A DNA stretch of 54,996 nt. Source: a virus. Taxonomy: Duplodnaviria > Heunggongvirae > Uroviricota > Caudoviricetes. The stretch's first letter is position 1. Each line of letters opens with the position of its first letter. This document shows positions 1-54,996 of this stretch, piece after piece. The notes under the pieces are model-generated. The model was not told the origin of the DNA. It did not search any database and worked only from the letters and a program-made list of their open reading frames with translations. The position numbers were made by a program, and so were the translations under genes. The stretch is taken from positions 1-54,996 of IMG/VR virus record IMGVR_UViG_3300045988_171436. The stretch is one strand, 5' to 3'.

Positions 1-52
1 CAGCGCATTCGTAATGCGAAGGTCGTAGGTTCGACTCCTATTATCGGCACCA
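1..52 (+). tRNA. thrW: 3' portion of tRNA-Thr (anticodon CGU), truncated by the window start
   Basis: Sequence CAGCGCATTCGTAATGCGAAGGTCGTAGGTTCGACTCCTATTATCGGCACCA matches the anticodon arm, T-arm and CCA end of enterobacterial tRNA-Thr(CGU) as remembered; ends in CCA at 50-52. Confidence 0.7.
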
Positions 53-53
53 T
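7..53 (+). repeat. attL core: 47-bp direct repeat identical to 41870-41916
   Basis: Exact 47-bp match between the two copies; mismatches immediately outside (pos 6 vs 41869, 54 vs 41917). Confidence 0.8.
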
Positions 54-15529: not shown

Positions 15530-15605
15530 TTCTGGTGGCCACGTTGCGTGGCCTTTTTATTTCCAACACAGCACCCGCAAATATCGCGAGGTGAGAGATG
15601 ACGAA

Positions 15606-15932
15606 ATGCCTCATAACCCAAATACCTGGCTGGACTTGGTCCAGAGCTGGTGGCGTGGAGACACACCGCTGGGTGCAGTGATTATGTCGATCGTTATGGC
15701 TGGTTTGCGCATCGCCTATTTTGGCGGTGGTGGTGGCTGGAAGCGAAAAACGCTCGAAATTCTACTCTGTGGCGCTCTGACGCTGACTTTTGCATCCGCT
15801 CTTGAGTATGTCGGATGGCCTAAATCACTTTCTGTTGCCATTGGTGGTGGGGTGGGGCTGATCGGTGTCGATGCTATTCGTGGGGCTGCAATGCGAGTAA
15901 TCGGTAACAAATTTGGTGGCTCTAAGGAGTAA
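15606..15932 (+). CDS. S: Holin (lambda S-like)
   Basis: Hydrophobic segments, AYFGGGGGWKRKT region resembling the lambda S loop, charged C-terminus; directly upstream of endolysin. Confidence 0.65.
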   Translation: MPHNPNTWLDLVQSWWRGDTPLGAVIMSIVMAGLRIAYFGGGGGWKRKTLEILLCGALTLTFASALEYVGWPKSLSVAIGGGVGLIGVDAIRGAAMRVIGNKFGGSKE

Positions 15933-18165: not shown

Positions 18166-18660
18166 ATGGCTGGAACGGCGGGGCGTTCCGGGCGTCGCCC
18201 CAAGCCAACGGCGCGCAAGGCGCTGGCCGGAAACCCCGGCAAGCGAGCCCTGAATAAAGATGAACCTGTTTTTACGCCCATCAAAGGTGTTGAGCCACCG
18301 GAGTGGTTCGCTGAAGAAGATCTCCCTCTCGCCACGATCATGTGGCAACTGACAACCAAAGAACTCTGCGGTCAGGGCCTGCTGTGCGTGACTGACCTCG
18401 CGGTGCTTGAGCGGTGGTGTGTGGCCTATGAGTTCTGGCGACGTGCCGTGAAAAATATTGCCAGACAGGGCAACACCATCACCGGTGCAATGGGCGGTAT
18501 GGTCAAAAATCCTGAGCTGACCGCCAAAAAAGAACAGGAGTCCGAGATGAGCAGTACGGGGGCAATGCTCGGACTCGACCCCAGCAGCCGCCAGCGTCTG
18601 ATTGGCCTGGCGGGGCAGAAGAAAGCCACTAACCCGTTTCTGAAAATTATCGAATCATGA
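18166..18660 (+). CDS. Terminase small subunit
   Basis: AGGAG RBS at 18153-18157; Arg/Lys-rich N-terminus; precedes large terminase. Confidence 0.65.
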
Positions 18661-20390
18661 GCCGGAAATCTTACCCCAACGTAAATGCTGCCAATCAGTA
18701 TGCCCGGGATGTCGTTCGCGGAAAGATTGTGGCCTGCCAGTTTGTGATTCAGGCCTGCCAGCGCCATCTTGATGACCTGATGGCGGAAAAAAGTAAGTCG
18801 TTTCGTTACCGCTTCGACAAGGACCTGGCTGAACGGGCCGCCAAATTTATTCAGCTGTTGCCGCATACCAAGGGTGAGTGGGCATTCAAACGGATGCCCA
18901 TCACGCTGGAGCCGTGGCAGCTCTTTGTGATCTGCTGTGCGTTTGGCTGGGTCAATAAAGGTACCCGGCTGCGCCGCTTCCGGGAGGTGTATACCGAAAT
19001 CCCCCGTAAGAACGGCAAATCGGCAATCTCTGCCGGTGTCGCCCTGTATTGTTTTGCCTGTGATAACGAGTTTGGCGCGGAAGTGTATTCCGGTGCCACG
19101 ACAGAGAAACAGGCGTGGGAAGTCTTTCGCCCGGCGCGACTGATGTGTAAACGCACACCCATGCTGACGGAAGCGTTCGGGATTGAGGTTAACGCCTCAA
19201 ACATGAACCGTCCGGAGGATGGCGCGCGGTTTGAGCCGCTGATCGGTAACCCCGGTGATGGTTCATCACCCCACTGTGCGGTGGTGGATGAATATCACGA
19301 GCATGCCACCGATGCACTTTACACCACGATGCTTACCGGGATGGGGGCGCGACGTCAGCCACTGATGTGGGCCATCACCACCGCCGGGTACAACATTGAG
19401 GGGCCGTGCTACGACAAGCGGCGGGAAGTTCTCGAGATGCTCAACGGTTCGGTACCCAACGATGAACTGTTCGGGATCATCTATACCGTTGACGAAGGCG
19501 ATGACTGGACCGACCCGCAGGTGCTGGAAAAAGCCAATCCAAATATTGGCGTGTCGGTTTATCGCGAATTTTTGTTAAGTCAGCAGCAGCGTGCGAAAAA
19601 TAACGCCCGTCTGGCAAACGTCTTTAAAACAAAACACCTCAATATCTGGGTGTCGGCGCGTTCGGCGTATTTCAACCTGGTGAGCTGGCAGAGCTGCGAG
19701 GATAAATCACTGACCCTTGAGCAGTTCGAGGGGCAGCCGTGCATTCTGGCCTTTGACCTGGCGCGTAAGCTGGATATGAACAGCATGGCGCGACTTTATA
19801 CCCGCGAGATTGACGGTAAAACGCATTACTACAGTGTGGCCCCGCGTTTCTGGGTACCGTATGACACGGTGTACAGCGTCGAGAAAAATGAAGATCGACG
19901 GACAGCCGAACGCTTTCAGAAATGGGTGGAAATGGGCGTTCTGACCGTTACCGATGGTGCGGAAGTGGATTATCGCTACATCCTCGAGGAGGCCAAAGCG
20001 GCGAACAAAATCAGCCCGGTCAGTGAGTCACCCATCGACCCCTTCGGGGCGACCGGGTTGTCACATGACCTTGCTGATGAAGACCTGAATCCCGTCACTA
20101 TCGTCCAGAACTTCACCAATATGTCCGACCCGATGAAAGAGCTGGAAGCGGCGATTGAATCGGGACGTTTTCATCATGACGGCAATCCCATCATGACCTG
20201 GTGTATCGGCAACGTGGTCGGCAAAACCATTCCGGGTAACGATGATGTGGTGAAGCCCGTCAAAGAGCAGGCGGAAAACAAAATCGATGGTGCAGTTGCG
20301 CTGATTATGGCGGTTGGCAGAGCCATGCTGTACGAGAAAGAAGACACGCTGTCTGACCACATTGAGTCCTATGGGATCCGCTCGCTTTAA
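18657..20390 (+). CDS. Terminase large subunit
   Basis: 577 aa with Walker A-like PRKNGKSA and C-terminal nuclease-like region; canonical position. Confidence 0.85.
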
Positions 20391-41869: not shown

Positions 41870-41916
41870 ATTCGTAATGCGAAGGTCGTAGGTTCGACTC
41901 CTATTATCGGCACCAT
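41870..41916 (+). repeat. attR core: duplicated 3' end of tRNA-Thr
   Basis: Exact 47-bp copy of 7-53. Confidence 0.8.
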
Positions 41917-42264
41917 CTTTTCTCGTAAAATCATCAGGTTACTATTGCAGAGTTTTGCTTTGTTTAACACTAATGTGCAATTTTGCGCGTTGTAGGTGTG
42001 GCAAAATTGTGGCAAGTCCAGTGAGATTGTTTGTGGCTCAATGCAAGGGTATGCTAACAGCACGTGTTACCTTTTAGCTCCCGCCTATCTTGCCTTTTGA
42101 GCAATATTTCTACTTCTTGTTACGGACGTTGTCAGGCCTGCACGGTTAGGTTGAAAGGATGTTACTACAACAACATACACAGGCATTCAAACGCGGTTAG
42201 TCGTCCATTTGGGAATTTGCATTGACTTGGCTACCTGACCTGCCCCCACGATTAGATACAACAC

Positions 42265-43098
42265 TCAGTTAGTAACGTCGGAATCTTCATTCTCAGAATG
42301 ACCCTTTCTCCAGCCCGCTGCAAATTCAGACGGTGTCTGATAATTCAGCGTGGAGTGCGGGCGGCATTCGTTATAATCCTGCCGCCAGTCATTAATAATT
42401 TTCCTGGCATGAACGATATCGCTGAACCAGTGCTCATTCAAACATTCATCGCGAAATCGTCCGTTAAAGCTCTCAATAAATCCGTTCTGCGTTGGCTTGC
42501 CCGGCTGGATTAAGCGCAACTCAACACCATGCTCAAAGGCCCATTGATCCAGTGCACGGCAAGTGAACTCCGGCCCCTGGTCAGTTCTTATCGTCGCCGG
42601 ATAGCCTCGAAACAGTGCAATGCTGTCCAGAATACGCGTGACCTGAACGCCTGAAATCCCAAAGGCAACAGTGACCGTCAGGCATTCCTTTGTGAAATCA
42701 TCGACGCAGGTAAGACACTTGATCCTGCGACCGGTGGAAAGTGCGTCCATGACGAAATCCATCGACCAGGTTAGATTGGGCGCCGCCGGACGGAGCAGCG
42801 GCAGACGTTCTGTTGCCAGCCCTTTACGACGTCTTCTGCGTTTTACGCCCAGACCACTGAGGTGATAAAGCCGGTACACGCGCTTATGATTAACATGAAG
42901 CCCTTCACGGCGCAGCAACTGCCAAATACGACGGTAGCCAAAACGCCTGCGCTCCAGTGCCAGCTCAGTGATGCGCCCTGATAAATGCGCATCAGCAGCC
43001 GGACGGTGAGCCTCATAGCGGCAGGTCGACAGGGATAAACCTGTAAGCCTGCAGGCACGACGTTGCGACAGACCGGTCGCATCACACATCAACATCAC
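42265..43098 (-). CDS. IS3-family transposase OrfB (DDE integrase domain)
   Basis: DDE-type catalytic region (WSMDFVMD ... TDQGPEF ... [16 protein letters not shown]). Confidence 0.85.
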
Positions 43099-43121
43099 GG
43101 CTTCCCGCTTCTGGTCTGTCG

Positions 43122-43385
43122 TCAGTACTTTCGCCCAAGAGCCACCTGAAGCGCCTCTTTATCCAGCATGGCTTCGGCAAGCAGCTTCTTGAGTCTGGTG
43201 TTCTCTTCCTCAAGCGACTTCAGGCGCTTAACTTCAGGCACCTCCATACCGCCATACTTCTTACGCCAGGTGTAAAACGTGGCATCGGAAATGGCATGCT
43301 TGCGGCAGAGTTCACCGGCGGGTACCCCAGCTTCGGCTTCGCGGAGAATACTGATGATCTGTTCGTCGGAAAAACGCTTCTTCAT
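43122..43385 (-). CDS. IS3-family transposase OrfA (HTH)
   Basis: 87 aa, HTH plus leucine-zipper-like C-terminus, directly upstream of orfB. Confidence 0.85.
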
Positions 43386-43831
43386 GGGGATGTCCTCATG
43401 TGGCTTATGAAGACATTACTAACATCGGGGTGTACTAATCAACGGGGAGCAGGTCATACCCATTCGCATTTTACTTGGACATCTCTAACAAAAATGCAAC
43501 CAATACCCAGTTAAACTGGAAGATAGCTTTGAGCGAACAGCGGAAGTTCATAGTTGTTCAAATTTCTGATGAAAGCTTTACCAGCCTCGCTATGCCACTC
43601 CTTCCCACACTATGGATATTTTCCTTAATAGTCATACCGAACGAACTTGAGTGGCTTATGCGCAAATGTTCTAATCTTCTTGTCTCAGCCATCATTGCTC
43701 TGGTACTGGATTGTATTTCTTGGTATAGGATAGCCCCCTTTACAGGGGGGCAAATGTAAAGCAATCTTTTTTGCATTGAGTTTCTACTTCCAGTGAATGC
43801 GTATTTAATTATTAAATATTACTTATGTTGA

Positions 43832-45190
43832 TTAAACTTTGAAATTGCCATCTAAATGTTGTTCAAATCGCCCTGTTAATATCAATAACTGGATTAAAAG
43901 GGAGGATACTCTATTTCTGTTGGAGTCGATACCTAACATATATAAGTCACCGGCAACTGTATTTATATTGCCATGCTCAATGCAATTTGGTAGCATTTTT
44001 AAATCTTGAGTTTTTAGTATTTTTTTGTATTTTCGTCCGATTAATTCAACAACCTTTTTCGTCCCAATCTCAGATATAATCTTATATGGACAATTGAAAA
44101 GCTCAAAAAAAATCTCATATTCTTCTTGAGACTTTTCTAGCAATTCATTTAGTTCTAAAAAAAAGTCTTTCCCATTAATATATTCTTTCCATATGTCCAT
44201 ACGTACAACATTTTTTTTATCATAGTATGGTTCTAAACTTGAAATCGGTTTTCCAATGACAATATCATTATTTGTTGATTTATAGTTGAACTTAACATAG
44301 CCCTTTAGTAAATTGTTATTACCCTCTTCTGTATTTTGGTGGTTTTTATTTATTGCTGTCATAATCATGGTTTTTGATTTTTGATTCCACGAATTGTCAT
44401 TATCTATCAAATTTGAATCTACAAGTATGTTATTTATAGTGCTATTATTGCAACTTAATATTTTTATTTTACCTTCTTCAATATACGGAGCATCAGAATC
44501 GAGAGATAGTTTATACCAACGTGATTTATCCCCATCTTTTTTTATTGCCAACCCAAAAGGCTCATTGGTTCCTACACCAACATATAATGGCAAATAAATT
44601 TTTTTGCCATTTACTTGGTTGCATTTTATTATTTTTAGATGAATTTTTTCTTTTTCTACATGTAGAAAATTATCTTTAAAATAGTCACGCAACTCTGTGT
44701 GATTTATTTCATTAAAGTCAATTTGGCTTATTTTTCTTGAAACATCAAATTGCTTATCCCATTGAGGAAACTCGAAAAATTCTAAATCAATGACTACACC
44801 ATCCTTAAGGCCTAGTTGTCTTAAATCGTTTAAGATACTATCATTTTGTATTACCGATTCTTTCCTGGAAACCTCAATGCGATAATCTAAACCCATAAGG
44901 TGATAATTGAAGTTATGATATAATGATGTCCTGAAATCCCATCGTCCAAATAAGTCCTTTTCGATACCACGATCCTCTTTGATGAATTTAAAAAGTTCAA
45001 TCCCAAAAAAAGAATTTTCCACATCATTAATTAAAGAAAAATTGAATTTTTCGTTTGAATATATGAAGCTCTTTAAAATATAAGGTAGGTTTTTGTCCGG
45101 GCCTAATATTTCATCTGTCATTATTACATCTGACTTAATTAAATCATTTGTTTTTTTAATTCTTTCATTTATTGATTCAATAAATCTCAT
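43832..45190 (-). CDS. Hypothetical protein (452 aa), very AT-rich
   Basis: Long ORF, Asn/Lys/Ile-rich; no recognised motif. Confidence 0.5.
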   Translation of the reverse strand: MRFIESINERIKKTNDLIKSDVIMTDEILGPDKNLPYILKSFIYSNEKFNFSLINDVENSFFGIELFKFIKEDRGIEKDLFGRWDFRTSLYHNFNYHLMGLDYRIEVSRKESVIQNDSILNDLRQLGLKDGVVIDLEFFEFPQWDKQFDVSRKISQIDFNEINHTELRDYFKDNFLHVEKEKIHLKIIKCNQVNGKKIYLPLYVGVGTNEPFGLAIKKDGDKSRWYKLSLDSDAPYIEEGKIKILSCNNSTINNILVDSNLIDNDNSWNQKSKTMIMTAINKNHQNTEEGNNNLLKGYVKFNYKSTNNDIVIGKPISSLEPYYDKKNVVRMDIWKEYINGKDFFLELNELLEKSQEEYEIFFELFNCPYKIISEIGTKKVVELIGRKYKKILKTQDLKMLPNCIEHGNINTVAGDLYMLGIDSNRNRVSSLLIQLLILTGRFEQHLDGNFKV

Positions 45191-45808
45191 ACATCCCTCA
45201 CTTGTTTTTATTGAAATGATTTTGATATTTTAAGGTAAATACATGAAAAATAAAATGAGAAAAAGTATATAAAACGATACACTTTGTATAAGAATAGTGC
45301 CACATACCTAAACCTCTACTTATTATTTTTTCTTTACGATTTAATATCATAGATTTATCCTCATTTATCCAAACGTATAAGTCTGTATGAAACATTATAT
45401 CTCACGAATTTAGCCTGTCTCAGAAAAGACTGAACATAATTACGGTTTAGCCCAGTTAGGAAAAGTGAAGCTGATGGGCTTCTTTATTTCAGGGAGCTTT
45501 AGGCTCCAACCAAGCGGTAACGTCACCGGCACCGTTGATAAAGTCAAAAAGGATGAACGACTGTTCCAGTCTCATGCAAGAATTAATTACTTGATATCCA
45601 GCATGAAAAATAAAACTCACCGGCATTACCATTTGCCACTACATCTATATATCTCATGCGTATACTTGTATTCATTATTATTCCCCATGGTCAAATACTA
45701 TCACTCCTTTGTATATTACAATGGTTTAATGCAATAAACTGCTAAAGCACTGCATTTAAACTTTTATCCAACGAGTGAAGGCCATTGTAATTAACTTAAA
45801 AGCATGAG

Positions 45809-46807
45809 CTAACTTTGCTTATCATTCAATTTGTCAAGTAGTATTTTTAACGTAAGCAAAAGTCGCTTTTGAAATTGGTTGGTGATTTCTGGGAGTCGAT
45901 GATTTATTTTAGTATCACCACTATAAAATAAATTTCGACTTTTATACGACTCAAAACGTCCTTCTGATGTTTGGTCAGGGAAAAGCAAATATTTTTCAAT
46001 GCATGCATTGTTCAGGATAACTCTATATGCTTTTGGCATATCGTCTAAAAGACCATCATGTATGATATGGTTTCGAACACATTCTATTTCATTAATAAAT
46101 GGACATTGCTCAAATAAAGATCCTTCATAATTATTTAAGCTCACTTTCTTTTTGTCGCCATATTGAGAGTTTTTGGCTGTCAATTTAACATAAGTAGAGA
46201 ACTGTGTTTTTAAATTTTCAATTTCTATAGCTAGTTTTGTTATGTAGTCAAGCAAACTGTGCATACGGATATAAATAAAACTAAGTAATGCAAAGAGCTT
46301 GGTCACGACTGGTGATGTCACATATCTTATACCGTCCTCCTCTTTAATGTTAGGGTAAAACAAGGGTTCAAAATTTAACGTGTAATAAAACTCCCCTTGA
46401 AGTTGCATCACTTCCTTGCTGCACTCCTGTATGCTACTTACAATTTTACGGCAATCAAAAAGGTAAAGGGCTTTGTTTACGTCAGTATTTCCTTTAAATT
46501 TATCAATAAATAAAATAAATGTTTCTTTTGAAACTACGGATTCTGAATTCAGACCTGCTGTTGATAAAAACTCAGGGGCCATATAAAGGAACTTGTGGTA
46601 GTTTTCTAACCCATCAAAAATGCTATTAGCTATAGCATCATGGATATTAACGCATAATGCATCGATCGCATAAAGATGATTCTCTCTGTTTGGGTACCAT
46701 CCTCCTTGAGGATCATGTATAAAGTAAATATCTTCACCTCCAATAGATTCAGTTGGTATCCCTTTTAAAGTCAAATACATGTTTTCATGTGAAGGTATCA
46801 TATCCAT
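45809..46807 (-). CDS. Hypothetical protein (332 aa) with HEPN-like Rx4H motif
   Basis: AT-rich; C-terminal ECVRNHIIHDG matches the R-x4-H signature; surrounding helices predicted. Confidence 0.5.
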   Translation of the reverse strand: MDMIPSHENMYLTLKGIPTESIGGEDIYFIHDPQGGWYPNRENHLYAIDALCVNIHDAIANSIFDGLENYHKFLYMAPEFLSTAGLNSESVVSKETFILFIDKFKGNTDVNKALYLFDCRKIVSSIQECSKEVMQLQGEFYYTLNFEPLFYPNIKEEDGIRYVTSPVVTKLFALLSFIYIRMHSLLDYITKLAIEIENLKTQFSTYVKLTAKNSQYGDKKKVSLNNYEGSLFEQCPFINEIECVRNHIIHDGLLDDMPKAYRVILNNACIEKYLLFPDQTSEGRFESYKSRNLFYSGDTKINHRLPEITNQFQKRLLLTLKILLDKLNDKQS

Positions 46808-47157
46808 AATTTTTCTGGAATTCCTCTTATGAAGCGAAAAACTGAGATGTGTACATAGGTTAATTTAAACAAGATAATCAAAATTTGAAAGCAATAATTT
46901 TTCATCTCAGGGGTTATCAAAAGACGCAGGGGGTTATATGGGTTTTTCTTTACTCAACCTAACGTCCGCTCCTGGCACAGAGCGGAAAAGCTCACTGGGC
47001 CAAAGGTCTGCTGTGAGCGAGGAGAGGAAGTTCCAGTGTTCTGCAACAGACGAAGGCCCTAATCAATGGATAGCTGGTAATGGTTAATATGCCATTGCTC
47101 TAAGTTAAAAGAATCTGTGTGCTCCTGGCTCTGGTAGTCTCAATGAAGATAATATTA

Positions 47158-50100
47158 TCAAGGTGAAGTGATCGTTTTAAATACATCAAAAAAATAAGAT
47201 GGGAAGCCTTGTAGCATTACTTCAAATCTCTCTGGGTTTTGTCGAATCATGTGTCGGGCGTCAAAACTAACTTGAATAGCACCTTGAGTCGTTCCTTCTG
47301 CAAGACACTGGGCAATTACGCGTTCAGCAAATCCCGCTTCAAAAAAGGCAATGCAACTCTGATTCGGAAGTCCATATTTCAATCGCTTCTGAAGAAGATC
47401 AACATATTCTCTAAAAACCTCACCCGCCTGTTCTGAAGAGAACGCGAGAAAGGATTCCTTTACCGCTGCGAGCAACAGCGCAAACTCAAAGCCAAATGTT
47501 TGTTCACACAGGTCTACAACCACATCAAGATCAAATTTTCTTTGGTTCGCACCATAGGGATAGGATGCACCCAATTTGTCAAGCCGTTGAACGAGAGCTG
47601 CAAACGAATCTCCAGCCAGCCACCCCAATGCTAATTTCTTAAGTGCCCCATTAGGAACTATGTCGCTCAACCGTTTTTCATTAGATAAGAGTACTAAAAG
47701 CGGCCATAGCATATCAAACAGGTGATCGGCAGAGGTTGCTCCCTCGAGTGCGTTTGCATTTGTAGTGACCCATGATTCGATTGCCAACGCTTGATCAATA
47801 CCTAACAAAGTCCGCCCGAAACGCTTCTGGATCGCTGTATCTGGAACAAAAAGTTCGATCCTTCGCGCCACAGACTCGAAGATATCTGTCAGGAGTATTT
47901 TTTGCTCTTCAGTGGCAAGCGAGTAGGCAAGTGTTTCAGTAACCAATTCTCGAGAGTTGTCCACAAAAGTTTCGGGCTGAACATCACTACGATATGTCAT
48001 TAAGAAGCTTTCAACAGCTTCAATTATCTTTTTCTTGGATTTAAGTTGTTCGATTAGTGAAGCGACCGAAAAGTTCTGTTTAGGAATATTGATAGGAACG
48101 CTCTCTACCCACTTTAAAAGAGCTTCCCAGTCATTGACAATGTAAGTGGCTACTTCAGCAGAGCTTGGAGAGCTTAGAATAACTGTTCCGAGGTCATTTC
48201 GCAGAGGATCGAAAAGAGAAAGCAATGTACTTCCAGTTGGCTCAGCACTATCAGGATTGATTAGATTGATCGTTTCTTGCCAACGGTACGTCTTTGCGAA
48301 ACGCTCGTCATAGAGACGGGGGTCAGTGAAAATAACAGTACCCTCACCGTACATTCCGGCACGTCCAGCGCGTCCCATGAGATTATGGAAGTCGCGTACT
48401 TTGATCGATTCACGCCCCTGCATTGCGCTTGTTACAAGTAGGTATCGAATCGGAAGGTTAACACCCTGTGCAAGCGTCGAGGTGCAGATGATCAATCGAA
48501 TAAGGCTTTGCCTCATAGCATACTCAATAGCCAGACGAACACCTTGGGGAGTGTTGCCGTGATGAGCAAAAATGCCTAAAGCAGCTGCTTGTGTCAAATA
48601 TGCATTAGCACCAAAATTACGTTCGAAGAGATAAACAAAGCGACGAATCTCATTAGGGTCACTATGGGCAGAAGGTGGCTCAAGTGAAATTCCACGACGA
48701 AAAATATCTTCGGCGGCCTCACGAACAATTTTTGCAGCAGAAGACTTTCTTCCTGTGAAAATAGCAACCCCACCATTTTTCAGCAGACGTAAACTAAGAT
48801 ATAACGCTATGGAGCCACTCTCCTGAGTAGGGAAAAAACGATCCTTTCTTTCCTTAGGTAATCGAGGCATTTTTTCTGAAACAATAACTCGCGGGACAAA
48901 GAATTTCTGATCGCTATCAGAGGCCACATTGAACTGAAGTTGACCATCTTTACCTTTCGGAAGGCTGGCAAAGGCAATGAGTCTACTAGCCTGTAAGGCT
49001 CTACTGGAGACAACCTTTGAACCGTCATTTAATAGCCATGCAGCAACAGAAGCAGCATTCTGAATTACTGCTGAAATCAACACGCTCTGGGCATTTTCGT
49101 GTAGCATTCGCTTAATGGATGTTAACAGCAGTTCATAAGTTACACCCCGGCTGCCTGTGTCAAACTGATGCCCTTCGTCATAAACTACCAATCCAGCTTT
49201 CTGAACAATGTCTGGCTCTTGTCGAAGTATGTAAAGAAGCTTTTCCGGGGTAAGAATAATGACTTGTGGCTTCGATTCGACCTCTGAGTCAAATATTCCA
49301 GATTCCAAATCGAGAAAATCTGATAAGTTAGAAAAATCGAACTCGACATCTGGTTGCAACGCGTCACTGGGTTGATTGACGTCATAGCCATCATCCTTGA
49401 ATGCCTTTTCAAGATCGTTTGCTATCTCTTGGCATAGTGCGCGGAAGGGGGCAATAACTAAAGCCAATTTCGTACGAGCAGAAAGAAATGCCGACCGAAT
49501 AATAAGCTCGGTAGCTCTAGATTTCCCGGCGCTCGTCGGCATCTGAACAACACCTGATGTCCCTTTATACAATCCAGCCTCTCCTAGCAAGCGCTGAGAT
49601 GGCCACATTTCCTTAATTGACATAGAACGCGATAAATATGTATCCCACTTTTCTTGCGGGAGGTTGCTATAGCGTGGAAGTAATGTCCAAGCAGAATTAG
49701 CGATGCGAGTGGCACTAATCGCTCCGAGCAAATCGGCCATAAGTAGGTCATGTGCAGACGCATGGCTATAGGCCCATTCGCGCAATGATTTAATAGCATC
49801 ATTGGCTTTCTGTCGGCCATTCAGGCCATTTCTGAAGTGTTGGCTCAAAACATCCAAAATATCTTTTGCACGTGAAGACTCTAGTGTCTCGTTGGTATGC
49901 TCCCAAGGCCGATCCATCGCAGTTTTAACTGCAATAGCTAAAGTATCGTGCTTAGGAAAATCTAGTTGGCTCAGTTTAGATAATTGGACTGCAGCATTTC
50001 CGGGTACATCACCAAGATAGAAACCAGCAGCGGCAAGTATGCGAAGATTGAAGGAGAGTTCTTTGTTAAGCAGGGAATCCTCAAAAGCTTGAAGGACTTG

Positions 50101-50373
50101 AGCCGAAAAAATAACCTCATCCAGTGGGGTTTGGGATTGTGCTTCAATCGAATTGCCGATGGTCTTAGCCACCACTTCGGACGCAAAGTCACCGACAGTA
50201 CCAACAGCTAATGGAAACTGCATCTCCAAATTGAGATCATCAGGAAGCTCTATATGGTCTCCTTCAGGAACTCCATACTCAAACATTTTTCCTTTTGATA
50301 GCGTAACTGCCGCCGCATATCGAGCACGTTTTTTAGGCTTCATTTTCTGCCCTCCAATAGAGAGCGTGAACAA
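47158..50373 (-). CDS. hamB: SF2 DExH helicase (Hachiman HamB-like)
   Basis: Walker A QMPTSAGKSRA, motif II VYDEGHQF, motif VI HNLMGRAGRAG; 41-nt overlap with upstream gene. Confidence 0.6.
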   Translation of the reverse strand: MFTLSIGGQKMKPKKRARYAAAVTLSKGKMFEYGVPEGDHIELPDDLNLEMQFPLAVGTVGDFASEVVAKTIGNSIEAQSQTPLDEVIFSAQVLQAFEDSLLNKELSFNLRILAAAGFYLGDVPGNAAVQLSKLSQLDFPKHDTLAIAVKTAMDRPWEHTNETLESSRAKDILDVLSQHFRNGLNGRQKANDAIKSLREWAYSHASAHDLLMADLLGAISATRIANSAWTLLPRYSNLPQEKWDTYLSRSMSIKEMWPSQRLLGEAGLYKGTSGVVQMPTSAGKSRATELIIRSAFLSARTKLALVIAPFRALCQEIANDLEKAFKDDGYDVNQPSDALQPDVEFDFSNLSDFLDLESGIFDSEVESKPQVIILTPEKLLYILRQEPDIVQKAGLVVYDEGHQFDTGSRGVTYELLLTSIKRMLHENAQSVLISAVIQNAASVAAWLLNDGSKVVSSRALQASRLIAFASLPKGKDGQLQFNVASDSDQKFFVPRVIVSEKMPRLPKERKDRFFPTQESGSIALYLSLRLLKNGGVAIFTGRKSSAAKIVREAAEDIFRRGISLEPPSAHSDPNEIRRFVYLFERNFGANAYLTQAAALGIFAHHGNTPQGVRLAIEYAMRQSLIRLIICTSTLAQGVNLPIRYLLVTSAMQGRESIKVRDFHNLMGRAGRAGMYGEGTVIFTDPRLYDERFAKTYRWQETINLINPDSAEPTGSTLLSLFDPLRNDLGTVILSSPSSAEVATYIVNDWEALLKWVESVPINIPKQNFSVASLIEQLKSKKKIIEAVESFLMTYRSDVQPETFVDNSRELVTETLAYSLATEEQKILLTDIFESVARRIELFVPDTAIQKRFGRTLLGIDQALAIESWVTTNANALEGATSADHLFDMLWPLLVLLSNEKRLSDIVPNGALKKLALGWLAGDSFAALVQRLDKLGASYPYGANQRKFDLDVVVDLCEQTFGFEFALLLAAVKESFLAFSSEQAGEVFREYVDLLQKRLKYGLPNQSCIAFFEAGFAERVIAQCLAEGTTQGAIQVSFDARHMIRQNPERFEVMLQGFPSYFFDVFKTITSP

Positions 50374-51172
50374 ATTTCATAAGCGATTTAGCATGTATCA
50401 CAACCAACATAAGGTTTTTAATATTTTCATGCGAAGTGCAGTCTGTAGTTTTAGATATATGAACCGGATCATAAAGACTTGAACAAAAAACAGCCGCCGC
50501 CCCTGTCATTCGTACATAAGGGACATCCAACCCTTCTTGAAAGCGTTCCACGCGATCTGCACCTTCTTCATCTTGATGATCAATTAAACGGCGCTTCATC
50601 GCATTAAGGGATTCTGAAATTCTATACACATCCTTTATCGAGTCGATAACGGCGTCTTGCAATCTAGGCTTTGCTTTCTTACCACTGAGTTGTGCTTTCG
50701 ACTCAAAAGAAATCAAGATATCTTTTGTAGATGGCCGTGATGGGCCTATGCCATCAAACTTAAACGCTAAGACATCTGTTCCCTTTGGGGACTCGTTGCG
50801 AACCATTTTGTTGTCATATCGGGTACGTGGAACCCAAAAACCAAAATGGCTTTCAAGTAGATCCGCGATAAGGATTTCAGCAAAATCACCGGAGCGCGTT
50901 GCTGGGCCAAAATCTTCAGACTCATCAGGAAACACCAAGTCTCTCAAATACTCGGCTCGCGATTTGTTAGTCCCTCTGCGCAGGCGATCAATTTGGCTAT
51001 CAAGACAGTAATGCTCACGGAAATGTTTGGCCCATGCGGATAGTACAAGCCCTGCTTCAAGATCGATTTCGAGCTCGTATACCTCTACCTCATTGCCGTC
51101 AGAAGTGGTTATGCTATGTTCAGCTTTTTTGAGCCAAGCTGAGTACGGTTGTCCAGCATTCATTGTAACCAT
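50333..51172 (-). CDS. hamA: HamA-like (DUF1837-type) protein, putative PD-(D/E)xK-like
   Basis: 279 aa immediately upstream of and overlapping the helicase; GTDVLAF ... ISFESKAQL acidic/Lys pattern. Confidence 0.45.
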   Translation of the reverse strand: MVTMNAGQPYSAWLKKAEHSITTSDGNEVEVYELEIDLEAGLVLSAWAKHFREHYCLDSQIDRLRRGTNKSRAEYLRDLVFPDESEDFGPATRSGDFAEILIADLLESHFGFWVPRTRYDNKMVRNESPKGTDVLAFKFDGIGPSRPSTKDILISFESKAQLSGKKAKPRLQDAVIDSIKDVYRISESLNAMKRRLIDHQDEEGADRVERFQEGLDVPYVRMTGAAAVFCSSLYDPVHISKTTDCTSHENIKNLMLVVIHAKSLMKFVHALYWRAENEA

Positions 51173-51472
51173 TTTTGCTCTTTCTTAAGCACTCCGTGGC
51201 TTAACACTTTGAGATGCGACGGCGAAATCGACAGTTTGCGGGCATAGTACTCCCTTTGATTTTACTGCTATGAGCTCCGCAGGGTGAATATATTGATGCC
51301 TAAGACGGTAAGCCAGGTAATACGAGAAAACAGGCCCTAAATTGTCCATATAAGATGGCATGAAACTGCCGACTTTGGTAGCCGATCTTACTCGAATGTG
51401 ATGATGACATCATTGGCATAGCGGTATATTAGTCAACAGAGAACAGGTGTGTAGCAAAGTAAGGGGAAATCA

Positions 51473-52837
51473 ATGGATATCTTAGCGTTAAAAGAATTAC
51501 TCCGCCCTGTGGTGGGAAACTTGAAAGATCACTGCACTAACGAAAAAATCCCTGATCTCTGTCGTCACTTGGGTCTACCTGTGCCCAAAGAAGAAGGATC
51601 CAAGCGCGAGCGCTTGCATGGAGCCTTTGATTTACTCGATGACGCAGATATGCCGGAGTTTGCAAGAGCGCTTTTGGCGCAGAAGGTTTTCAATCCCAGC
51701 ATACGCAACAATATCCAGGACCTCCTATGGGCGGACGAGCCCATCATCGATATACCCAAGCGTCATCGTCGTGAACTGGCAGAAGCTCTGCAACCATTTG
51801 AATTATTTGGCCACTGGGAAAATTTCAAGCGTTTATTAAATGATCTGTTTGTTTTTCCGTTGGATTTAAGTGAAATGTTTTCGATTCATGAGACAGGGAT
51901 TCTTGGCGAAATTCACCGACATTTTGTACGAAATCCTGAAGACGGTGACGTGGCATGGTTATTTGAAAAACTACAGGTTGTCGAACTATCAGCTCCACGT
52001 TTCCGTAGGTGGCTCGAAGGTTTAGTCTCTGCGGACGTGCAGATCAGTATCGAAAGGCAGTTAGCAAAAGTTGAGGCCGTTAATAAAGTTTTAAGAACCT
52101 GTGGAGCTGAGCTTATCCATAGCTCTGATGCTGAAGGCTATCCGGTTTTCAGCCTGATATCGTTGCGGACATTTCGGGGGCGCCCTAAGAACATTATTTT
52201 TGCCTCTCTCACCAAACCCGATATTCGCTTGAGTGACTCTCTTAATAACGAAATTGAAATTCTTTCAAACCCCAATCAGGTTTTGATCTATGATCGTCCA
52301 TTAAGTACCGAGGGATTGAGTTGGCGTGAACTGCAGGCATGGTGGGCAGATTTTATTTGCGAAGAGAATAGCGAAGAGGCAAAAATTTCGCTTTATCGAC
52401 GATTGCAGCAAAGTTTGCCTAATTCGTCTCCGCCCCAGAAAAAATTTTTCAAGGAATTCTTTCGACAATATAGGTCAGCAATTTATGACTTACCTGCATT
52501 GCTACCAGAAGTTTGGCTGCACTGGGATCCCAAAACCGTATCTGAGAGAGGCGCTGGAGCATTACTCAATCATCGGATGGATTTTCTTTTGCTAATGCCT
52601 GATGGCAGTAGGGTTGTGATCGAAATCGATGGCATTCAACATTACTCAGATGAAAAAGGTAGGGCAAGTAAGAGTAAGTATGCAGATTTGGTTGCAGCTG
52701 ATCGTAGCTTAAAATTGGCAGGTTATGATATTTATCGTTTTGCAGGTGTCGAACTTCATCACGACGATGCTTCATACAAAATAAAGTACTTTTTTGATAC
52801 TTTATTTAAATATCATGGGATAAAAATAAAATTTTAG
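51473..52837 (+). CDS. Protein with C-terminal DUF559-like endonuclease domain (454 aa)
   Basis: C-terminal RVVIEIDGIQHYSD ... RSLKLAGYDIYRFAG resembles the DUF559/Vsr-like core; N-terminal 330 aa unknown. Confidence 0.5.
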   Translation: MDILALKELLRPVVGNLKDHCTNEKIPDLCRHLGLPVPKEEGSKRERLHGAFDLLDDADMPEFARALLAQKVFNPSIRNNIQDLLWADEPIIDIPKRHRRELAEALQPFELFGHWENFKRLLNDLFVFPLDLSEMFSIHETGILGEIHRHFVRNPEDGDVAWLFEKLQVVELSAPRFRRWLEGLVSADVQISIERQLAKVEAVNKVLRTCGAELIHSSDAEGYPVFSLISLRTFRGRPKNIIFASLTKPDIRLSDSLNNEIEILSNPNQVLIYDRPLSTEGLSWRELQAWWADFICEENSEEAKISLYRRLQQSLPNSSPPQKKFFKEFFRQYRSAIYDLPALLPEVWLHWDPKTVSERGAGALLNHRMDFLLLMPDGSRVVIEIDGIQHYSDEKGRASKSKYADLVAADRSLKLAGYDIYRFAGVELHHDDASYKIKYFFDTLFKYHGIKIKF

Positions 52838-53427
52838 CTAAATTTTTTCTAAAAAAAAGCACTATATAAGCTTAGAGTAATGGTTTGGGGCCGCCTTCAG
52901 GGATGTGTCACTTTATTTTATTTGACTCGCTACTCTTAGTAGTGATACAGATAGATGTTAGCAATATCCAGTATTTGCATATAGCAGTCATTCAGATTTG
53001 AGACCTGTAGCCTAACACTCCCGAATCTTAGTGGTCCAATTTTATTGGCGTTGCTCGACTAATCTGCAAACGGTGAAAAGATAAAATGTAAATGGATAGT
53101 CAAATCAAATGCAACTACGCATCCATTAGTATTTTCGAATAATTAGATGTAAGATGCTAATGTCTAATGTAGGATGTTCCATTCAGGCCAGAGTGCCAAA
53201 AAAAAGGCCCGATCTTACCAGTCGGGCTTCTTTATATCGGCTTTCAATGCTGCCTGTACCACCGCTAAAATGATTTACCTGGTCAGGGCAGGTCCCCATC
53301 ATCAAGGACCGGATTTTTTAATCCTCAGTTGTCCGAGTGTATTATCGCTTTAATAAGTTGTTAGTAATGCATGAGTATTATTCAAAGCATATTATGTATT
53401 AGGACTAAGCAATCTAATTGAATACTA

Positions 53428-53685
53428 TTACTTTTTTTTATTAAACCATGCCTCATGTAGCTCTTGCAGTTTCACCCAAAAATATGCATCTGTATTGAAA
53501 ATTATCGCGAGTTGAAAAGCTTCCTCAAGAGTTATATTTCGCTCATTTTTTATTATTTCCAAAATTTTTTCATATGATGTATCCATCAGTTCAGCAAGTC
53601 TTGCGGGAGGCATATCCAATGGTTTCAAGAATTCTTCGTATAAAATCTCTCCGACAGTTGAAGGTGCAGCATTTATCGTCCTCAT
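53428..53685 (-). CDS. HigA-like HTH antitoxin/regulator (orphan)
   Basis: 85 aa, GEILYEEFLKPLDMPPARLAELMDTSYEKILEIIKNERNITLEEAFQLAIIFNTDAYFWVKLQ matches the HigA-family pattern; AGGAGG RBS. Confidence 0.55.
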   Translation of the reverse strand: MRTINAAPSTVGEILYEEFLKPLDMPPARLAELMDTSYEKILEIIKNERNITLEEAFQLAIIFNTDAYFWVKLQELHEAWFNKKK

Positions 53686-54017
53686 CCCCCCTCCTTTTTT
53701 TAAACGTCATCGGATTCATTATAGTAATTTGTTTAGTTAAACAAATCATAGAGTAAGGTTGGTTTAAGTGTTTTTCTTACTCAAATTCGATATATCCGCT
53801 GTCAGGAATGAATCATTTGCAAACAGTAGTTCTTATAAAGGTTAGCTAACCAAATTAATAAGTCATCTACAACCCTCTGTTATTTACATTTTGTTTCATT
53901 TTATTTATTGCTATTTAGTTTAGCTAAACAATCTATTTCATCATGTATAATCTGTGTATTTACCCATAGATTCTGTTGATAATATTGTGCATAACTTGTT
54001 TGTTTATTTTTTATCAT

Positions 54018-54083
54018 ATGACATATGAGGTACGCTTTTATGACATATGAGGTACGCTTTCATGACATTTGAGGTACAGATAT
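54018..54083. repeat. Three tandem 22-bp direct repeats
   Basis: ATGACATATGAGGTACGCTTTT / ATGACATATGAGGTACGCTTTC / ATGACATTTGAGGTACAGATAT. Confidence 0.8.
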
Positions 54084-54378
54084 AATTTAAAATTCTCATA
54101 ATAAACAAATAAATATATCACTTTTCCACCTCCCTCTAACCTGATCTTTAACCTTATATATAACCAAAAAGATTAAAGGAATTATTAAAACCTTAGTGTC
54201 ATTCAGAAATTGGTCAATAAAACCAATTTCATATGAAGTAAGAACCCGATGAATAAAAACCCTGTTGACATTATTCTTTTTGGCAGTAAGTTTTAATTAT
54301 TCTCAATTCATAACGTTGGTTAGCAAACTTTAGCGCCTAAAATTTTAGCCGCTAAAATCCTCAAATTTCTACTGAGAG

Positions 54379-54672
54379 ATGGGTTCTTCGATGAAATCAG
54401 TTATGCCAGAACTTATAACCGTTGAAGAGTTGGCTTTTGCATTAAAGAAAACTGTAAAAAGTATCCGCAGTGATGCAACGCGAAATCCAAAATGTCTTCC
54501 ACCAAGATGCCGTCTTCCCGGTAATAAACGTCTTCTCTGGCGTAGAGAGGATGTTAAGGACTGGATAGATAAATCTGTAGAGTCAAAGACAGAAAATGAC
54601 GATATAGCGAAAGAGATAAATAGGGTTCAAAGGAAACGTGGCAGGCCGCTAAAACCCAAGCCGCGAGAATAA
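54379..54672 (+). CDS. AlpA-like HTH regulator
   Basis: ...LITVEELAFALKKTVKSIRSD ... KRLLWRREDVKDWIDKS resembles AlpA/excisionase-type HTH; start codon uncertain (54379, 54391 or 54403). Confidence 0.5.
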   Translation: MGSSMKSVMPELITVEELAFALKKTVKSIRSDATRNPKCLPPRCRLPGNKRLLWRREDVKDWIDKSVESKTENDDIAKEINRVQRKRGRPLKPKPRE

Positions 54673-54996
54673 AAATATTCCTTGGGGTATTCAGATAAGT
54701 TTCCTTTCAATAAACACATATGCTGCACACTTTTACACGACTAATACTGCACAAATGCTTTACGAAAACACACTGAGTACACAGGAATACACAATACGTA
54801 CACAGATTCACAACGGCAAATGTAGGGCAGGACATGTAAAGTAGGCCCACCGTAAACGGTGCTTCTACTTTACCTTCCCTTATTCGCAGCTGAGCTGCTC
54901 AACGGAGTCCTGCTCTGCGAGGCTGATCGGCTACCGCCTGTATGAACCGCCCCGGGTTTCCTGGAGAGTGTTTTATCTGTGAACTCAGGCTGCCAG

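What the first reader, a model, noticed from the sequence alone, without database searches (positions are those of the whole stretch)
54018..54083. Three tandem 22-bp repeats upstream of the AlpA-like gene
Head-to-tail copies, the third degenerate, each contain a CATATG palindrome and lie about 300 bp upstream of the AlpA-like gene in an AT-rich region. They look like iterons or regulator binding sites, possibly from the control region of a second integrative element that continues beyond the window.
Basis: seen in the sequence. Interest (0 to 1): 0.4.

Follow-up and report, generated by a model that had tools for sequence, protein, structure and literature searches.

The report
Plasmid-type replication-origin repeats inside a mobilizable island
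The three 22-bp repeats are binding sites of the kind used by the replication protein TrfA of IncP-1 conjugative plasmids, sitting in a chromosomal mobilizable island that has no such protein of its own, so the island probably borrows replication (as well as regulation and transfer) from a visiting helper plasmid.

Summary
The repeats are real: three head-to-tail 22-bp units at 54018-54083. Each holds a 15-nt core, TGACAT(A/T)TGAGGTAC.

That core and its 22-bp phasing match the TrfA iterons of IncP-1 plasmid origins. RK2 has TGACA(G/C)(A/T)TGAGGGGC, and Enterobacterial IncP-1-like plasmids such as pEC187_3 have exactly the GGTAC form. The flanks mirror a plasmid oriV in miniature: a DnaA-box region, the iterons, an AT-rich stretch, then TAACC repeats.

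The same intergenic region also carries KorA and KorB operators, and an IncP-type oriT lies further downstream.

The host element is an integrative mobilizable island at tRNA-Thr (window 41870 onward) carrying Hachiman. Its closest known relatives are the PIME elements described in a 2026 preprint. It has no replicase gene.

In 13 diverged copies from E. coli and Enterobacter:
- Arrays of 3-4 iterons stay in phase.
- Cores are conserved while spacers drift.
- Some copies carry a ~165-bp patch about 97% identical to a plasmid oriV.

Most likely the repeats form a helper-dependent origin, a TrfA decoy, or both. A vestigial relic is not excluded.

The parts
54018..54083 (+). Three tandem 22-bp units. 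The 15-nt TrfA-type iteron cores lie at 54019-54033, 54041-54055 and 54063-54077 (TGACAT(A/T)TGAGGTAC), separated by 7-nt spacers.
   Evidence: The same core and phasing occur in the oriV of pEC187_3, p5_3214 and pKPC2_sg2. Logo of 26 distinct island units. RK2 iteron sequences in PMC3273809 and PMC9499019.
53959..53982 (+). DnaA-box region. In this copy it is degenerate (TTTACCCATA ... CTGTTGATAA). The first box reads TTATCCACA in 8 of the 13 aligned island variants. The plasmids have inverted boxes TTATCCACGGAATCTGTGGATAA at the same place.
54084..54200 (+). AT-rich stretch (25% G+C) followed by TAACC-containing ~12-nt repeats (54137, 54149, 54161). It is collinear with the AT-rich/TAACC-repeat part of the plasmid oriV and is the presumed DNA-unwinding element. 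The G+C-rich block that follows in the plasmids is absent.
53731..53742 (.). KorA operator-like palindrome GTTTAGTTAAAC. It has 1 mismatch here and is perfect (GTTTAGCTAAAC) in relatives. It lies about 45 bp upstream of the HigA-like gene.
   Evidence: OA sequence from PMC11790492.
53918..53929 (.). Perfect KorA operator GTTTAGCTAAAC, invariant in all 13 variants.
   Evidence: PMC11790492.
54329..54356 (.). Two tandem KorB operators: TTTAGCGCCTAAA (1 mismatch) and TTTAGCCGCTAAA (perfect). They lie 35-60 bp upstream of the HTH gene and correspond to the 15-bp tandem repeat that TRF reports.
   Evidence: OB core from PMC11790492.
53786..53851 (.). Two further conserved blocks with no known binder: TTCGATATATCCG (53786-53798) and the palindrome GGTTAGCTAACC (53840-53851).
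   Evidence: Neither block is present in pEC187_3.
53428..53685 (-). Solo HigA-family/XRE helix-turn-helix gene, divergent from the HTH gene. No toxin partner is annotated in any of the examined copies.
   Evidence: TIGR02607, E = 2e-17
54391..54672 (+). Residues 5-55 are invariant in 8 variants, and the C-terminal KRGRPxKxKP motif is also invariant.
54829..54923 (+). IncP-type oriT: an inverted repeat (54829-54880, the presumed TraJ site) and the nick region GAGTCCTGCTCTGCGAGGC (54905-54923). The nick region is identical in the islands and in the plasmids.
   Evidence: oriT features described in bioRxiv 10.64898/2026.01.12.698999.
54943..54996 (+). End of an IS3-family insertion sequence. It interrupts the element about 10 bp upstream of where traJ starts in strain CUVM53.
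41870..41916 (+). 47-bp copy of the 3' part of tRNA-Thr, marking the left end (att) of the island. The same repeat flanks the complete 18.3-kb element in CUVM53 and in Enterobacter quasiroggenkampii.
41917..53427 (.). Cargo of the island: an IS3-family element, two hypothetical genes, Hachiman (HamB 47158-50373, HamA 50333-51172) and an AbiJ_NTD3 protein (51473-52837). Relatives carry other defence systems in this position.

Best explanation
The repeats are TrfA-type iterons, the initiator-binding sites of IncP-1 plasmid replication origins. They form the core of a miniature oriV that has no replicase gene: a DnaA-box region, 3 iterons in 22-bp phase, then an AT-rich/TAACC-repeat unwinding region. 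This oriV sits in the regulatory intergenic region of an integrative mobilizable island inserted at tRNA-Thr.

Shown:
- The sequence identity and collinearity with plasmid oriVs.
- Conservation of the iteron cores, but not the spacers, across diverged island copies.
- Patches shared with plasmid oriVs.
- Absence of any trfA or other rep gene in the island.
- Presence of KorA and KorB operators and an IncP-type oriT next to the array.

Inferred:
- When an Enterobacterial IncP-1-like helper plasmid enters, its TrfA binds the three cores.
- With host DnaA, TrfA then opens the AT-rich region, so the excised island replicates only while the helper is present.
- The extra iterons also compete with, or pair with, the helper's own origin.
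- KorA/KorB sites tie the island's two divergent promoters, and perhaps its partition, to the helper.
- The oriT lets the helper relaxase mobilize the island.

This particular copy looks partly disabled. Its DnaA box, one KorA site and one KorB site each carry mutations, and an IS3-family element sits just upstream of traJ.
For: 1. Match to plasmid origins. blastn places window 54017-54153 at 77% identity on the non-coding region just downstream of trfA in MOBP/MPF_T conjugative plasmids, with 5-6 hits per plasmid. Those plasmids carry 2+7 copies of (T/C)GACAT(A/T)TGAGGTACGC at 22-bp spacing, preceded by DnaA boxes and followed by AT-rich and TAACC repeats. The window has the same order of parts.

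2. Match to proven TrfA sites. The RK2 iterons are TGACA(G/C)(A/T)TGAGGGGC, 17 bp. Position 13-14 variants (TA for the usual GG) are reported among IncP/P-1 clade II iterons.

3. Conservation across copies. In 13 island variants from E. coli and Enterobacter the arrays have 3-4 units in strict phase. Positions 1-12 carry 1.2-2.0 bits of information each and spacers 0.26-1.0 bits. Invariant columns are 28/36 in the cores, 274/627 in the rest of the intergenic region (p = 9e-5) and 2/21 in the spacers (p = 9e-7). Window versus PSS-11 identity is 97% in cores, 38% in spacers and 63% elsewhere.

4. Exchange with plasmids. Islands carry two flavours, GGTAC and GGGGC, as the plasmids do. Variants L009, L010 and L014 carry a ~165-bp patch about 97% identical, spacers included, to the oriV of pS171-1.3, set within island-specific flanks.

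5. The island genes are not decaying. dN/dS is 0.04-0.2 at dS up to and above 1, and all ORFs are intact.

6. No replicase. There is no trfA in the island. trfA-like DNA is found in 65 plasmids and 4 chromosomes among 5,426 E. coli genomes; the two chromosomal hits that were listed are lab strains. No Rep domain appears in the backbone proteins.

7. Other IncP-1 sites close by. There are two OA and two OB operators and the oriT.

8. Feasibility from earlier work. An RK2 origin replicates when the plasmid function is supplied in trans (Figurski & Helinski 1979, listed). Iterons supplied in trans inhibit RK2 replication (Kittell & Helinski 1991, listed). Related PIME1 elements excise and replicate only with IncP helpers and reduce helper amplification.
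Against: - No binding or replication experiment exists for this element.
- The array has 3-4 iterons, against 5 in the minimal RK2 origin and 7+2 in the related plasmids.
- The G+C-rich block that follows the plasmid oriV is missing.
- According to the review read, RK2 needs all four 13-mers. The island has three adjacent TAACC units plus one more distant.
- The DnaA box is perfect in only 8 of the 13 aligned variants and is mutated in this window.
- Many copies lack an integrase and attR, so they cannot excise.
- In the guaA-type relative in E. coli HS the module has shrunk to a single iteron, and a separate RepA-oriV does the work. This shows the module can be dispensable.
- Core conservation could come from repeated gene conversion from plasmids rather than from selection in the island.
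- At most one of the E. coli genomes with a traJ-trbJ match holds both an island and an IncP-1-like plasmid.
Confidence: 0.55

Rival explanations
1. Relic. The array is a non-functional leftover of an IncP-1-like plasmid segment from which the island's transfer module was built. It is bound by nothing useful and persists by inertia or by occasional gene conversion from passing plasmids.
For: There is no trfA. The array is short and lacks the G+C-rich block. This copy has a mutated DnaA box and mutated OA and OB sites. In the guaA-type PIME1 of E. coli HS the module is reduced to one iteron and the HTH gene is truncated. IS elements have cut the array or its surroundings in some strains. Many copies have no integrase. 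The plasmid-identical patch shows that conversion can refresh the cores without selection acting in the island.
Against: Cores stay intact and in phase in all 12 uninterrupted variants, while spacers and flanks diverge to 38-63% identity. Neighbouring genes are under strong purifying selection. KorA and KorB operators are likewise conserved. Conversion tracts replace the whole functional unit of iterons plus AT-rich region rather than random pieces.
Confidence: 0.28
2. Decoy only. The chromosomal iterons do not fire as an origin. Instead they act against IncP-1-like plasmids by titrating TrfA or pairing with the plasmid origin (incompatibility). Together with the island's TrbK entry-exclusion protein, this makes the backbone an anti-plasmid module within a defence island.
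For: Iterons in trans inhibit RK2 replication (Kittell & Helinski 1991, listed). The island keeps trbJ-trbK-trbL intact. Its cargo is always defence genes. Island and plasmid are rarely found in the same genome: at most 1 observed against about 3.8 expected, which is not significant. PIME1 lowers helper amplification.
Against: A single chromosomal copy of 3-4 iterons is a weak competitor for a plasmid carrying nine. The DnaA box and the unwinding-type repeats are conserved alongside the iterons, and a pure decoy would not need them. An oriT and a TraJ imply that the island wants the plasmid's transfer machinery rather than wanting to exclude it.
Confidence: 0.12
3. Local regulator sites. The repeats are operators for the island's own HTH protein ('AlpA-like') or for the HigA-like protein.
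For: The repeats lie between two divergent HTH genes. Direct repeats are used by some excisionase-type proteins (general knowledge).
Against: The HTH region of the 93-aa protein is invariant while the iteron flavour changes. HigA-like proteins differ by more than 50% between islands with near-identical arrays, as in L006 versus L016. The same repeats occur in plasmids that lack both proteins. Other conserved palindromes in the region are better candidates for these proteins.
Confidence: 0.04

Closest known systems
oriV iterons of IncP-1 plasmids (RK2/RP4) bound by TrfA
   Same: The core motif is TGACA..TGAGG..C. The spacing is 22 bp centre to centre and the repeats are direct. The array is flanked by DnaA box(es) on one side and an AT-rich unwinding region on the other. 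Some island variants carry TGACACTTGAGGGGC, which is identical to RK2 iterons.
   Different: There are only 3-4 copies. No trfA is present in the replicon, and the G+C-rich block is missing. The array sits on a chromosome-integrated island. The window's flavour has TA instead of GG at positions 13-14.
oriV of Enterobacterial IncP-1-like ('clade II') plasmids such as pEC187_3, pKPC2_sg2 and pS171-1.3
   Same: The iteron flavours (GGTAC or GGGGC) are the same, and the order DnaA boxes - iterons - AT-rich - TAACC repeats is the same. Identity is 77% over 134 bp for the window and about 97% over ~165 bp for some island variants. The nick region of oriT is also shared, and trbJ is 88-94% identical.
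   Different: The plasmids have 2+7 iterons directly after trfA, more TAACC repeats and a G+C-rich block. The island has none of the plasmid's replication, partition or relaxase genes.
PIME elements (Pseudomonadota integrative mobilizable elements; bioRxiv 10.64898/2026.01.12.698999), which include GIsul2 and the 'IncP island'
   Same: It is an integrated island with a tyrosine integrase, a small HTH regulator, IncP-like oriT, traJ and trbJ-trbK-trbL, and a large defence-gene cargo. IncP plasmids are the expected helpers. TraJ, TrbJ and TrbL are 86-89% identical to those of a guaA-type PIME1 in E. coli HS.
   Different: PIMEs are defined with a replicase (repA, with or without repC) and have their own iterons of a different sequence next to repA. 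This island has no replicase and instead carries helper-type TrfA iterons. It sits at tRNA-Thr rather than guaA. Its HTH protein is not recognisably AlpA (28% identity over 25 residues to the HS one). The preprint does not mention KorA or KorB operators.
SGI1 and its IncC helper plasmids
   Same: It is a mobilizable island that replicates only when the helper is present, destabilises the helper, and hijacks helper partition sites (titles and abstracts of PMC7433901 and PMC10954446). The KorB operators here could play the role of the hijacked parS.
   Different: SGI1 encodes its own Rep and oriV and belongs to an unrelated family. Here the proposal is that the origin itself imitates the helper's origin.

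Membership tests
IncP-1 oriV iteron array (TrfA sites) | Core sequence matching TGACA(G/C)(A/T)TGAGGGGC or a documented subgroup variant | tested here: met
   The window cores are TGACAT(A/T)TGAGGTAC. They are identical to cores in the oriV of pEC187_3, p5_3214 and pKPC2_sg2. Relatives of the island carry TGACA(T/C)(A/T)TGAGGGGC, as RK2 does.
IncP-1 oriV iteron array (TrfA sites) | Direct repeats at about 22-bp spacing with variable spacers | tested here: met
   Spacing is 22 bp in the window and in the plasmids. Spacers carry little information.
IncP-1 oriV iteron array (TrfA sites) | DnaA box(es) on one side and an AT-rich region with short repeats on the other | tested here: inconclusive
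   The order of parts is the same as in the plasmids. However, the DnaA box is degenerate in this window, there are fewer TAACC units, and the G+C-rich block is absent.
IncP-1 oriV iteron array (TrfA sites) | A cognate trfA in the same replicon | tested here: not met
   There is no TrfA match in the window, in the complete element of CUVM53, or in the Enterobacter loci. Natural E. coli chromosomes lack trfA-like DNA.
IncP-1 oriV iteron array (TrfA sites) | TrfA binding and TrfA-dependent initiation | not testable with these tools
   Requires EMSA or footprinting and a replication assay.
PIME (IncP-dependent integrative mobilizable elements) | Integrase and flanking att repeats | tested here: met
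   47-bp tRNA-Thr repeats occur at window 41870-41916, and at both ends of the 18.3-kb element in CUVM53, next to a Phage_integrase protein. The integrase lies beyond this window, and several strains lack it.
PIME (IncP-dependent integrative mobilizable elements) | alpA regulator | tested here: inconclusive
   A small HTH protein sits in the expected regulatory position. The only family match is HTH_17 at E = 0.19. The fold search lists MerR and Xis types, none significant.
PIME (IncP-dependent integrative mobilizable elements) | Own replicase (repA/repC) | tested here: not met
   No Rep-like protein is found in the backbone or the cargo.
PIME (IncP-dependent integrative mobilizable elements) | trbJ and trbL (with trbK), and an oriT resembling IncP plasmids | tested here: met
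   The oriT lies within the window. traJ and trbJ-K-L lie directly beyond the window end in CUVM53 and in all relatives.
PIME (IncP-dependent integrative mobilizable elements) | Excision, replication and transfer induced by an IncP helper | not testable with these tools
   This has been shown only for PIME1 elements, in the preprint.
   There is no match to 50,697 phage records. The viral-contig hits are this same island. The neighbours are conjugation genes, not satellite genes.

The most novel reading that the evidence does not exclude
The tRNA-Thr island is a parasite of Enterobacterial IncP-1-like plasmids that works entirely through borrowed DNA sites. It has no replicase, relaxase or partition genes. 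Instead it carries imitations of the helper's origin (TrfA iterons), its global-regulator and centromere sites (KorA and KorB operators) and its oriT. It keeps the iterons matched to whichever helper lineage circulates by gene conversion from the helper's own oriV. The same sites would let it sense the helper's arrival and depress helper copy number.
Probability: 0.35. Interest if true: 0.75.

Novelty: new variant of a known kind. Interest (0 to 1): 0.55.

Why it matters
Mobilizable islands that ride on conjugative plasmids are now seen as major carriers of anti-phage defence genes. How they detect and exploit their helpers is an open question that the PIME preprint states explicitly.

This island suggests a concrete and testable answer. 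It uses origin mimicry (TrfA iterons without trfA) and carries operators for the helper's KorA and KorB repressors beside its own control genes. If confirmed, this would be a case of an island borrowing a helper's replication initiator through imitated binding sites.

That would have two further consequences:
- It would explain incompatibility-like effects of such islands on IncP plasmids.
- It would define which plasmid lineages can move a whole class of E. coli and Enterobacter defence islands. Several of those lineages carry KPC or CTX-M genes, as the pKPC2_sg2 name and the pS171-1.3 annotation show; mcr-1 carriage by IncP-1 clade II plasmids is reported in PMC9499019.

Tried and rejected
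- **P4/PICI origin.** Rejected: no match in the phage collection, and the IMG/VR hits are the same island.
- **Integrase arm-type sites.** Rejected on position: the array is about 12 kb from the left att site and, in complete copies, about 6.4 kb from the right one.
- **Operators for the 93-aa HTH or the HigA-like protein.** Rejected for lack of covariation and because the repeats occur in plasmids without these proteins.
- **R6K-type 22-bp iterons.** Considered from memory only. Dropped once the direct match to IncP-1-type origins was found.
- **Structure of the 93-aa protein.** The single-sequence model had pLDDT 65 and produced no significant fold match, so 'AlpA-like' stays unproven.
- **TrbA operator.** I suspected that TTCGATATATCCG resembles it but could not verify the consensus. 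PMC94970 is not held and the 2026 TrbA paper does not print it. The block is absent from pEC187_3. It remains unexplained.
- **Uninformative search.** One E. coli search was dominated by the IS3-family end at the window edge. It told me only that the window ends in an IS.
- **Promoter scan.** It found nothing above chance.

Full report
**Observation**

The window holds three head-to-tail 22-bp units at 54018-54083. Tandem Repeats Finder reports period 22, 2.8 copies, 94% matches and score 108. The 14-nt core GACATWTGAGGTAC occurs exactly three times in 55 kb, all here and in phase; 0.48 matches are expected even with two mismatches allowed. The surrounding intergenic region (53686-54378) is 29% G+C, against 48% for the window.

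The third unit has an intact core and only its trailing spacer differs. The CATATG palindrome is incidental to the core TGACAT(A/T)TGAGG.

**What the repeats match**

A sensitive blastn of the intergenic region against 72,556 plasmids hit only the repeat region (window 54018-54165). Identity was 72-84% across the hits, all to conjugative MOBP/MPF_T plasmids of 41-128 kb from Klebsiella, E. coli, Enterobacter and Salmonella (one further hit, 100% over 53 bp in a 307-kb plasmid, covers another part of the intergenic region). There were mostly 5-6 hits per plasmid and no annotated feature under any of them.

In pEC187_3, p5_3214 and pKPC2_sg2 the hits lie just downstream of trfA. The backbones are IncP-1-like: ssb-trfA, trbA-trbL, klcA, korA-incC-korB, kfr, traM-K, oriT and traJ-I. 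Each plasmid has nine copies of (T/C)GACAT(A/T)TGAGGTACGC. Two sit right after trfA and seven are in tandem at 22-bp spacing. The array is preceded by inverted DnaA boxes (TTATCCACGGAATCTGTGGATAA) and followed by an AT-rich stretch, TAACC-containing 12-mers and a G+C-rich block.

The window has the same order in miniature:
- a degenerate DnaA-box region (53959-53982),
- three iterons,
- an AT-rich stretch,
- TAACC repeats (54137-54165).

This is shown.

The experimentally studied RK2 iterons are 17 bp with consensus TGACA(G/C)(A/T)TGAGGGGC. The five-iteron sequence is printed in PMC3273809. The length and the general origin layout are in PMC4980987. The consensus and its subgroup variants, including changes at positions 13-14, are in PMC9499019. 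The repeats are therefore TrfA-type iterons by sequence, spacing and context.

**The element that carries them**

The window is E. coli DNA. Strain CUVM53 matches window 41870-54944 at 99.9%. Window 1-53 is the 3' end of tRNA-Thr. Positions 54-41869 are a myovirus-type prophage. At 41870-41916 a 47-bp copy of the tRNA 3' part marks the start of a second element.

In CUVM53 and in Enterobacter quasiroggenkampii the same repeat recurs just past a tyrosine integrase. That bounds an 18.3-kb element with the following layout:

att - cargo - HigA-like gene (minus strand) - the 690-bp intergenic region - 93-aa HTH gene - oriT - traJ - trbJ-trbK-trbL - small ORF - vbhA - 315-aa ORF - int - att

In this window an IS3-family element interrupts the island at 54943, about 10 bp before traJ would start.

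The segment from the HigA-like gene to trbL is present in roughly 130 E. coli chromosomes at tRNA-Thr. The cargo on the tRNA side differs in nearly every lineage:
- Hachiman plus an AbiJ-domain protein (this window),
- ABC-three-component system,
- CBASS-like genes (SMODS nucleotidyltransferase, SAVED, ThiF-type and MPN-type proteins),
- HEPN nuclease plus methyltransferase,
- AAA ATPase plus HNH nuclease,
- S8 peptidase / IteS,
- NACHT.

Two Enterobacter species carry the same backbone with TraJ 98% identical, which points to recent transfer between genera.

**Closest described family**

The closest described family is the PIMEs of a January 2026 preprint. These are islands with int, alpA, repA, traJ and/or traI, trbJ/K/L and immune cargo. 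They excise, replicate and transfer only with IncP helper plasmids. Earlier literature on GIsul2 and the 'IncP island' made the same proposal (PMC5704250). A guaA-type PIME1 in E. coli HS has TraJ, TrbJ and TrbL 86-89% identical to ours.

Our island fails one defining criterion: it has no replicase.
- There is no TrfA or other Rep protein in the window, in the complete CUVM53 element or in the Enterobacter loci.
- trfA-like DNA occurs in 65 plasmids but only 4 chromosomes among 5,426 E. coli genomes. The two chromosomal hits that were listed are engineered lab strains.

The HS PIME1 has a RepA unrelated to TrfA, with its own, different iterons. Further on, in the position equivalent to ours, it carries one leftover TrfA-type iteron, one KorB operator and a truncated copy of the HTH gene. 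The TrfA-type module is therefore shared ancestrally with PIME1, decayed there, and kept here.

**Evidence bearing on function**

I aligned the intergenic region of 13 variants whose coding neighbours have diverged to dS of about 1 or more.
- All 12 uninterrupted variants keep 3-4 iterons in strict 22-bp phase. An IS5 element has cut the array in strain HeN100.
- Over 26 distinct units, positions 1-12 carry 1.2-2.0 bits each. Positions 13-14 are dimorphic (GG or TA). The 7-nt spacers carry 0.26-1.0 bits.
- Invariant columns are 28/36 in the cores, 274/627 in the rest of the region (Fisher p = 9e-5) and 2/21 in the spacers (p = 9e-7).

The two flavours correspond to two plasmid lineages whose trfA genes are only 74% identical. 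Variants L009, L010 and L014 carry a ~165-bp patch covering the iterons and the AT-rich region. The patch is about 97% identical, spacers included, to the oriV of pS171-1.3, while both flanks remain island-specific. Islands and these plasmids therefore meet in the same cells and recombine at exactly this unit.

The island's genes are under strong purifying selection (dN/dS 0.04-0.2, all ORFs intact). The backbone is not a decaying remnant.

**Other plasmid sites in the same intergenic region**

The region contains two KorA operators:
- GTTTAGCTAAAC, perfect, at 53918;
- the same with one mismatch at 53731, which is perfect in relatives.

It also contains two tandem KorB operators (consensus TTTAGCSGCTAAA):
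- perfect at 54344;
- one mismatch at 54329.

These are the only such sites in the window; 0.14 and 0.09 are expected by chance. The consensus sequences come from PMC11790492. pEC187_3 itself has two KorA sites and about twelve KorB sites. The preprint does not mention KorA or KorB.

The oriT nick region GAGTCCTGCTCTGCGAGGC is identical in islands and plasmids, while the inverted repeat next to it is island-specific.

Two further invariant blocks are absent from pEC187_3 and remain unassigned: TTCGATATATCCG and the palindrome GGTTAGCTAACC.

**Mechanism proposed**

Shown:
- The repeats are homologous to TrfA iterons.
- They sit in an oriV-like arrangement.
- Their cores are selectively conserved, or at least selectively retained.
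- They are exchanged with plasmid origins.
- The island has no initiator of its own.

Inferred:
- TrfA from a matching helper binds the cores.
- With DnaA it opens the AT-rich region and replicates the excised island.
- The extra iterons compete with the helper origin.
- KorA and KorB connect the island's divergent promoters, and possibly its segregation, to the helper.

Precedents support feasibility. RK2 origins fire with the plasmid function supplied in trans, and iterons in trans inhibit RK2 replication (references listed). PIME1 replicates only with a helper and lowers helper amplification.

**Counter-evidence**
- The array is short.
- The G+C-rich block of the plasmid oriV is missing.
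- The DnaA box is imperfect in 5 of the 13 aligned variants, including this one.
- Many copies lack an integrase.
- Gene conversion could mimic selection.
- Island and plasmid are almost never found in the same sequenced genome: at most 1 observed against about 3.8 expected, which is not significant.

I put 0.55 on a helper-dependent function, 0.28 on a relic, 0.12 on a decoy-only role and 0.04 on local regulator sites.

**This copy**

Compared with the family consensus, the window's copy has a mutated DnaA box, one mutated KorA site, one mutated KorB site and an IS3-family insertion next to traJ. Whatever the family does, this copy is probably impaired.

**The 'AlpA-like' gene**

The 93-aa protein has only a sub-threshold HTH_17 match (E = 0.19). 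The low-confidence model's nearest folds are MerR, BldC and Xis types, none of them significant. Its residues 5-55 and a C-terminal KRGRPxKxKP motif are invariant across variants. It is nearly absent from plasmids. It is a conserved small DNA-binding protein in the position where PIMEs have alpA, but membership in the AlpA family is not established.

**Verdict**

The repeats are real and are not ordinary regulator sites. They are IncP-1-type iterons in a replicase-less mobilizable island. This is a new variant of two known things, IncP-1 origins and PIME-type islands, and it yields clear, inexpensive experiments.

Noticed in passing
window 1-41869: The window starts inside tRNA-Thr (1-53). It then runs through a myovirus-type prophage (integrase 67-1230, terminase 18657-20390, portal, tail sheath, tape measure). 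The prophage sits in tandem with the mobilizable island at the same tRNA site.
   Followed up: partly
window 53731-53742, 53918-53929, 54329-54356: Two KorA operators and two tandem KorB operators of IncP-1 type lie beside the island's two divergent regulator genes. The 15-bp tandem repeat at 54325-54358 is the pair of KorB sites. The PIME preprint does not mention such sites.
   Followed up: yes
window 53786-53798 and 53840-53851: An invariant block, TTCGATATATCCG, and a perfect palindrome, GGTTAGCTAACC, are conserved in 12 of the 13 island variants and absent from pEC187_3. Their binder is unknown; candidates are the HigA-like protein, the 93-aa HTH protein, or TrbA.
   Followed up: partly
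window 54943-54996: An IS3-family end is inserted about 10 bp upstream of the position where traJ starts in strain CUVM53. It separates traJ from oriT and its promoter region in this strain.
   Followed up: partly
window 43832-45190 and 45809-46807: Two hypothetical genes lie between the IS3-family element and Hachiman. They have no significant Pfam or PADLOC match and are candidate unknown defence genes within a defence-cargo slot.
   Followed up: no
L021 (E. coli HS) 15225-15310 and 15594-15730: The guaA-type PIME1 has its own four RepA iterons (GCGCATATTCTGTC-like). Further on it has a vestige of the TrfA-type module: one iteron (TGACACATGAGGTAG), one KorB operator and a truncated start of the 93-aa HTH gene.
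   Followed up: partly
L009 2835-2990, L010, L014 versus L022 40050-40210: A ~165-bp patch covering the iterons and the AT-rich region is about 97% identical between some islands and the oriV of the CTX-M-130 plasmid pS171-1.3, with island-specific flanks. This looks like a gene-conversion tract.
   Followed up: yes
L023, L024 (IMG/VR contigs): This island is filed in a viral contig collection, probably because prophages integrate next to it at tRNA-Thr.
   Followed up: partly
E. coli genome collection: traJ-trbJ matches fall in 327 records from 326 genomes. So at most one genome holds both an island and an IncP-1-like plasmid, against about 3.8 expected by my own rough estimate if the two were independent. 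This is suggestive of exclusion or incompatibility but is not significant.
   Followed up: no
window 54391-54672: The 93-aa HTH protein ends in an invariant KRGRPxKxKP motif resembling an AT-hook. That would suit binding in this very AT-rich region.
   Followed up: no
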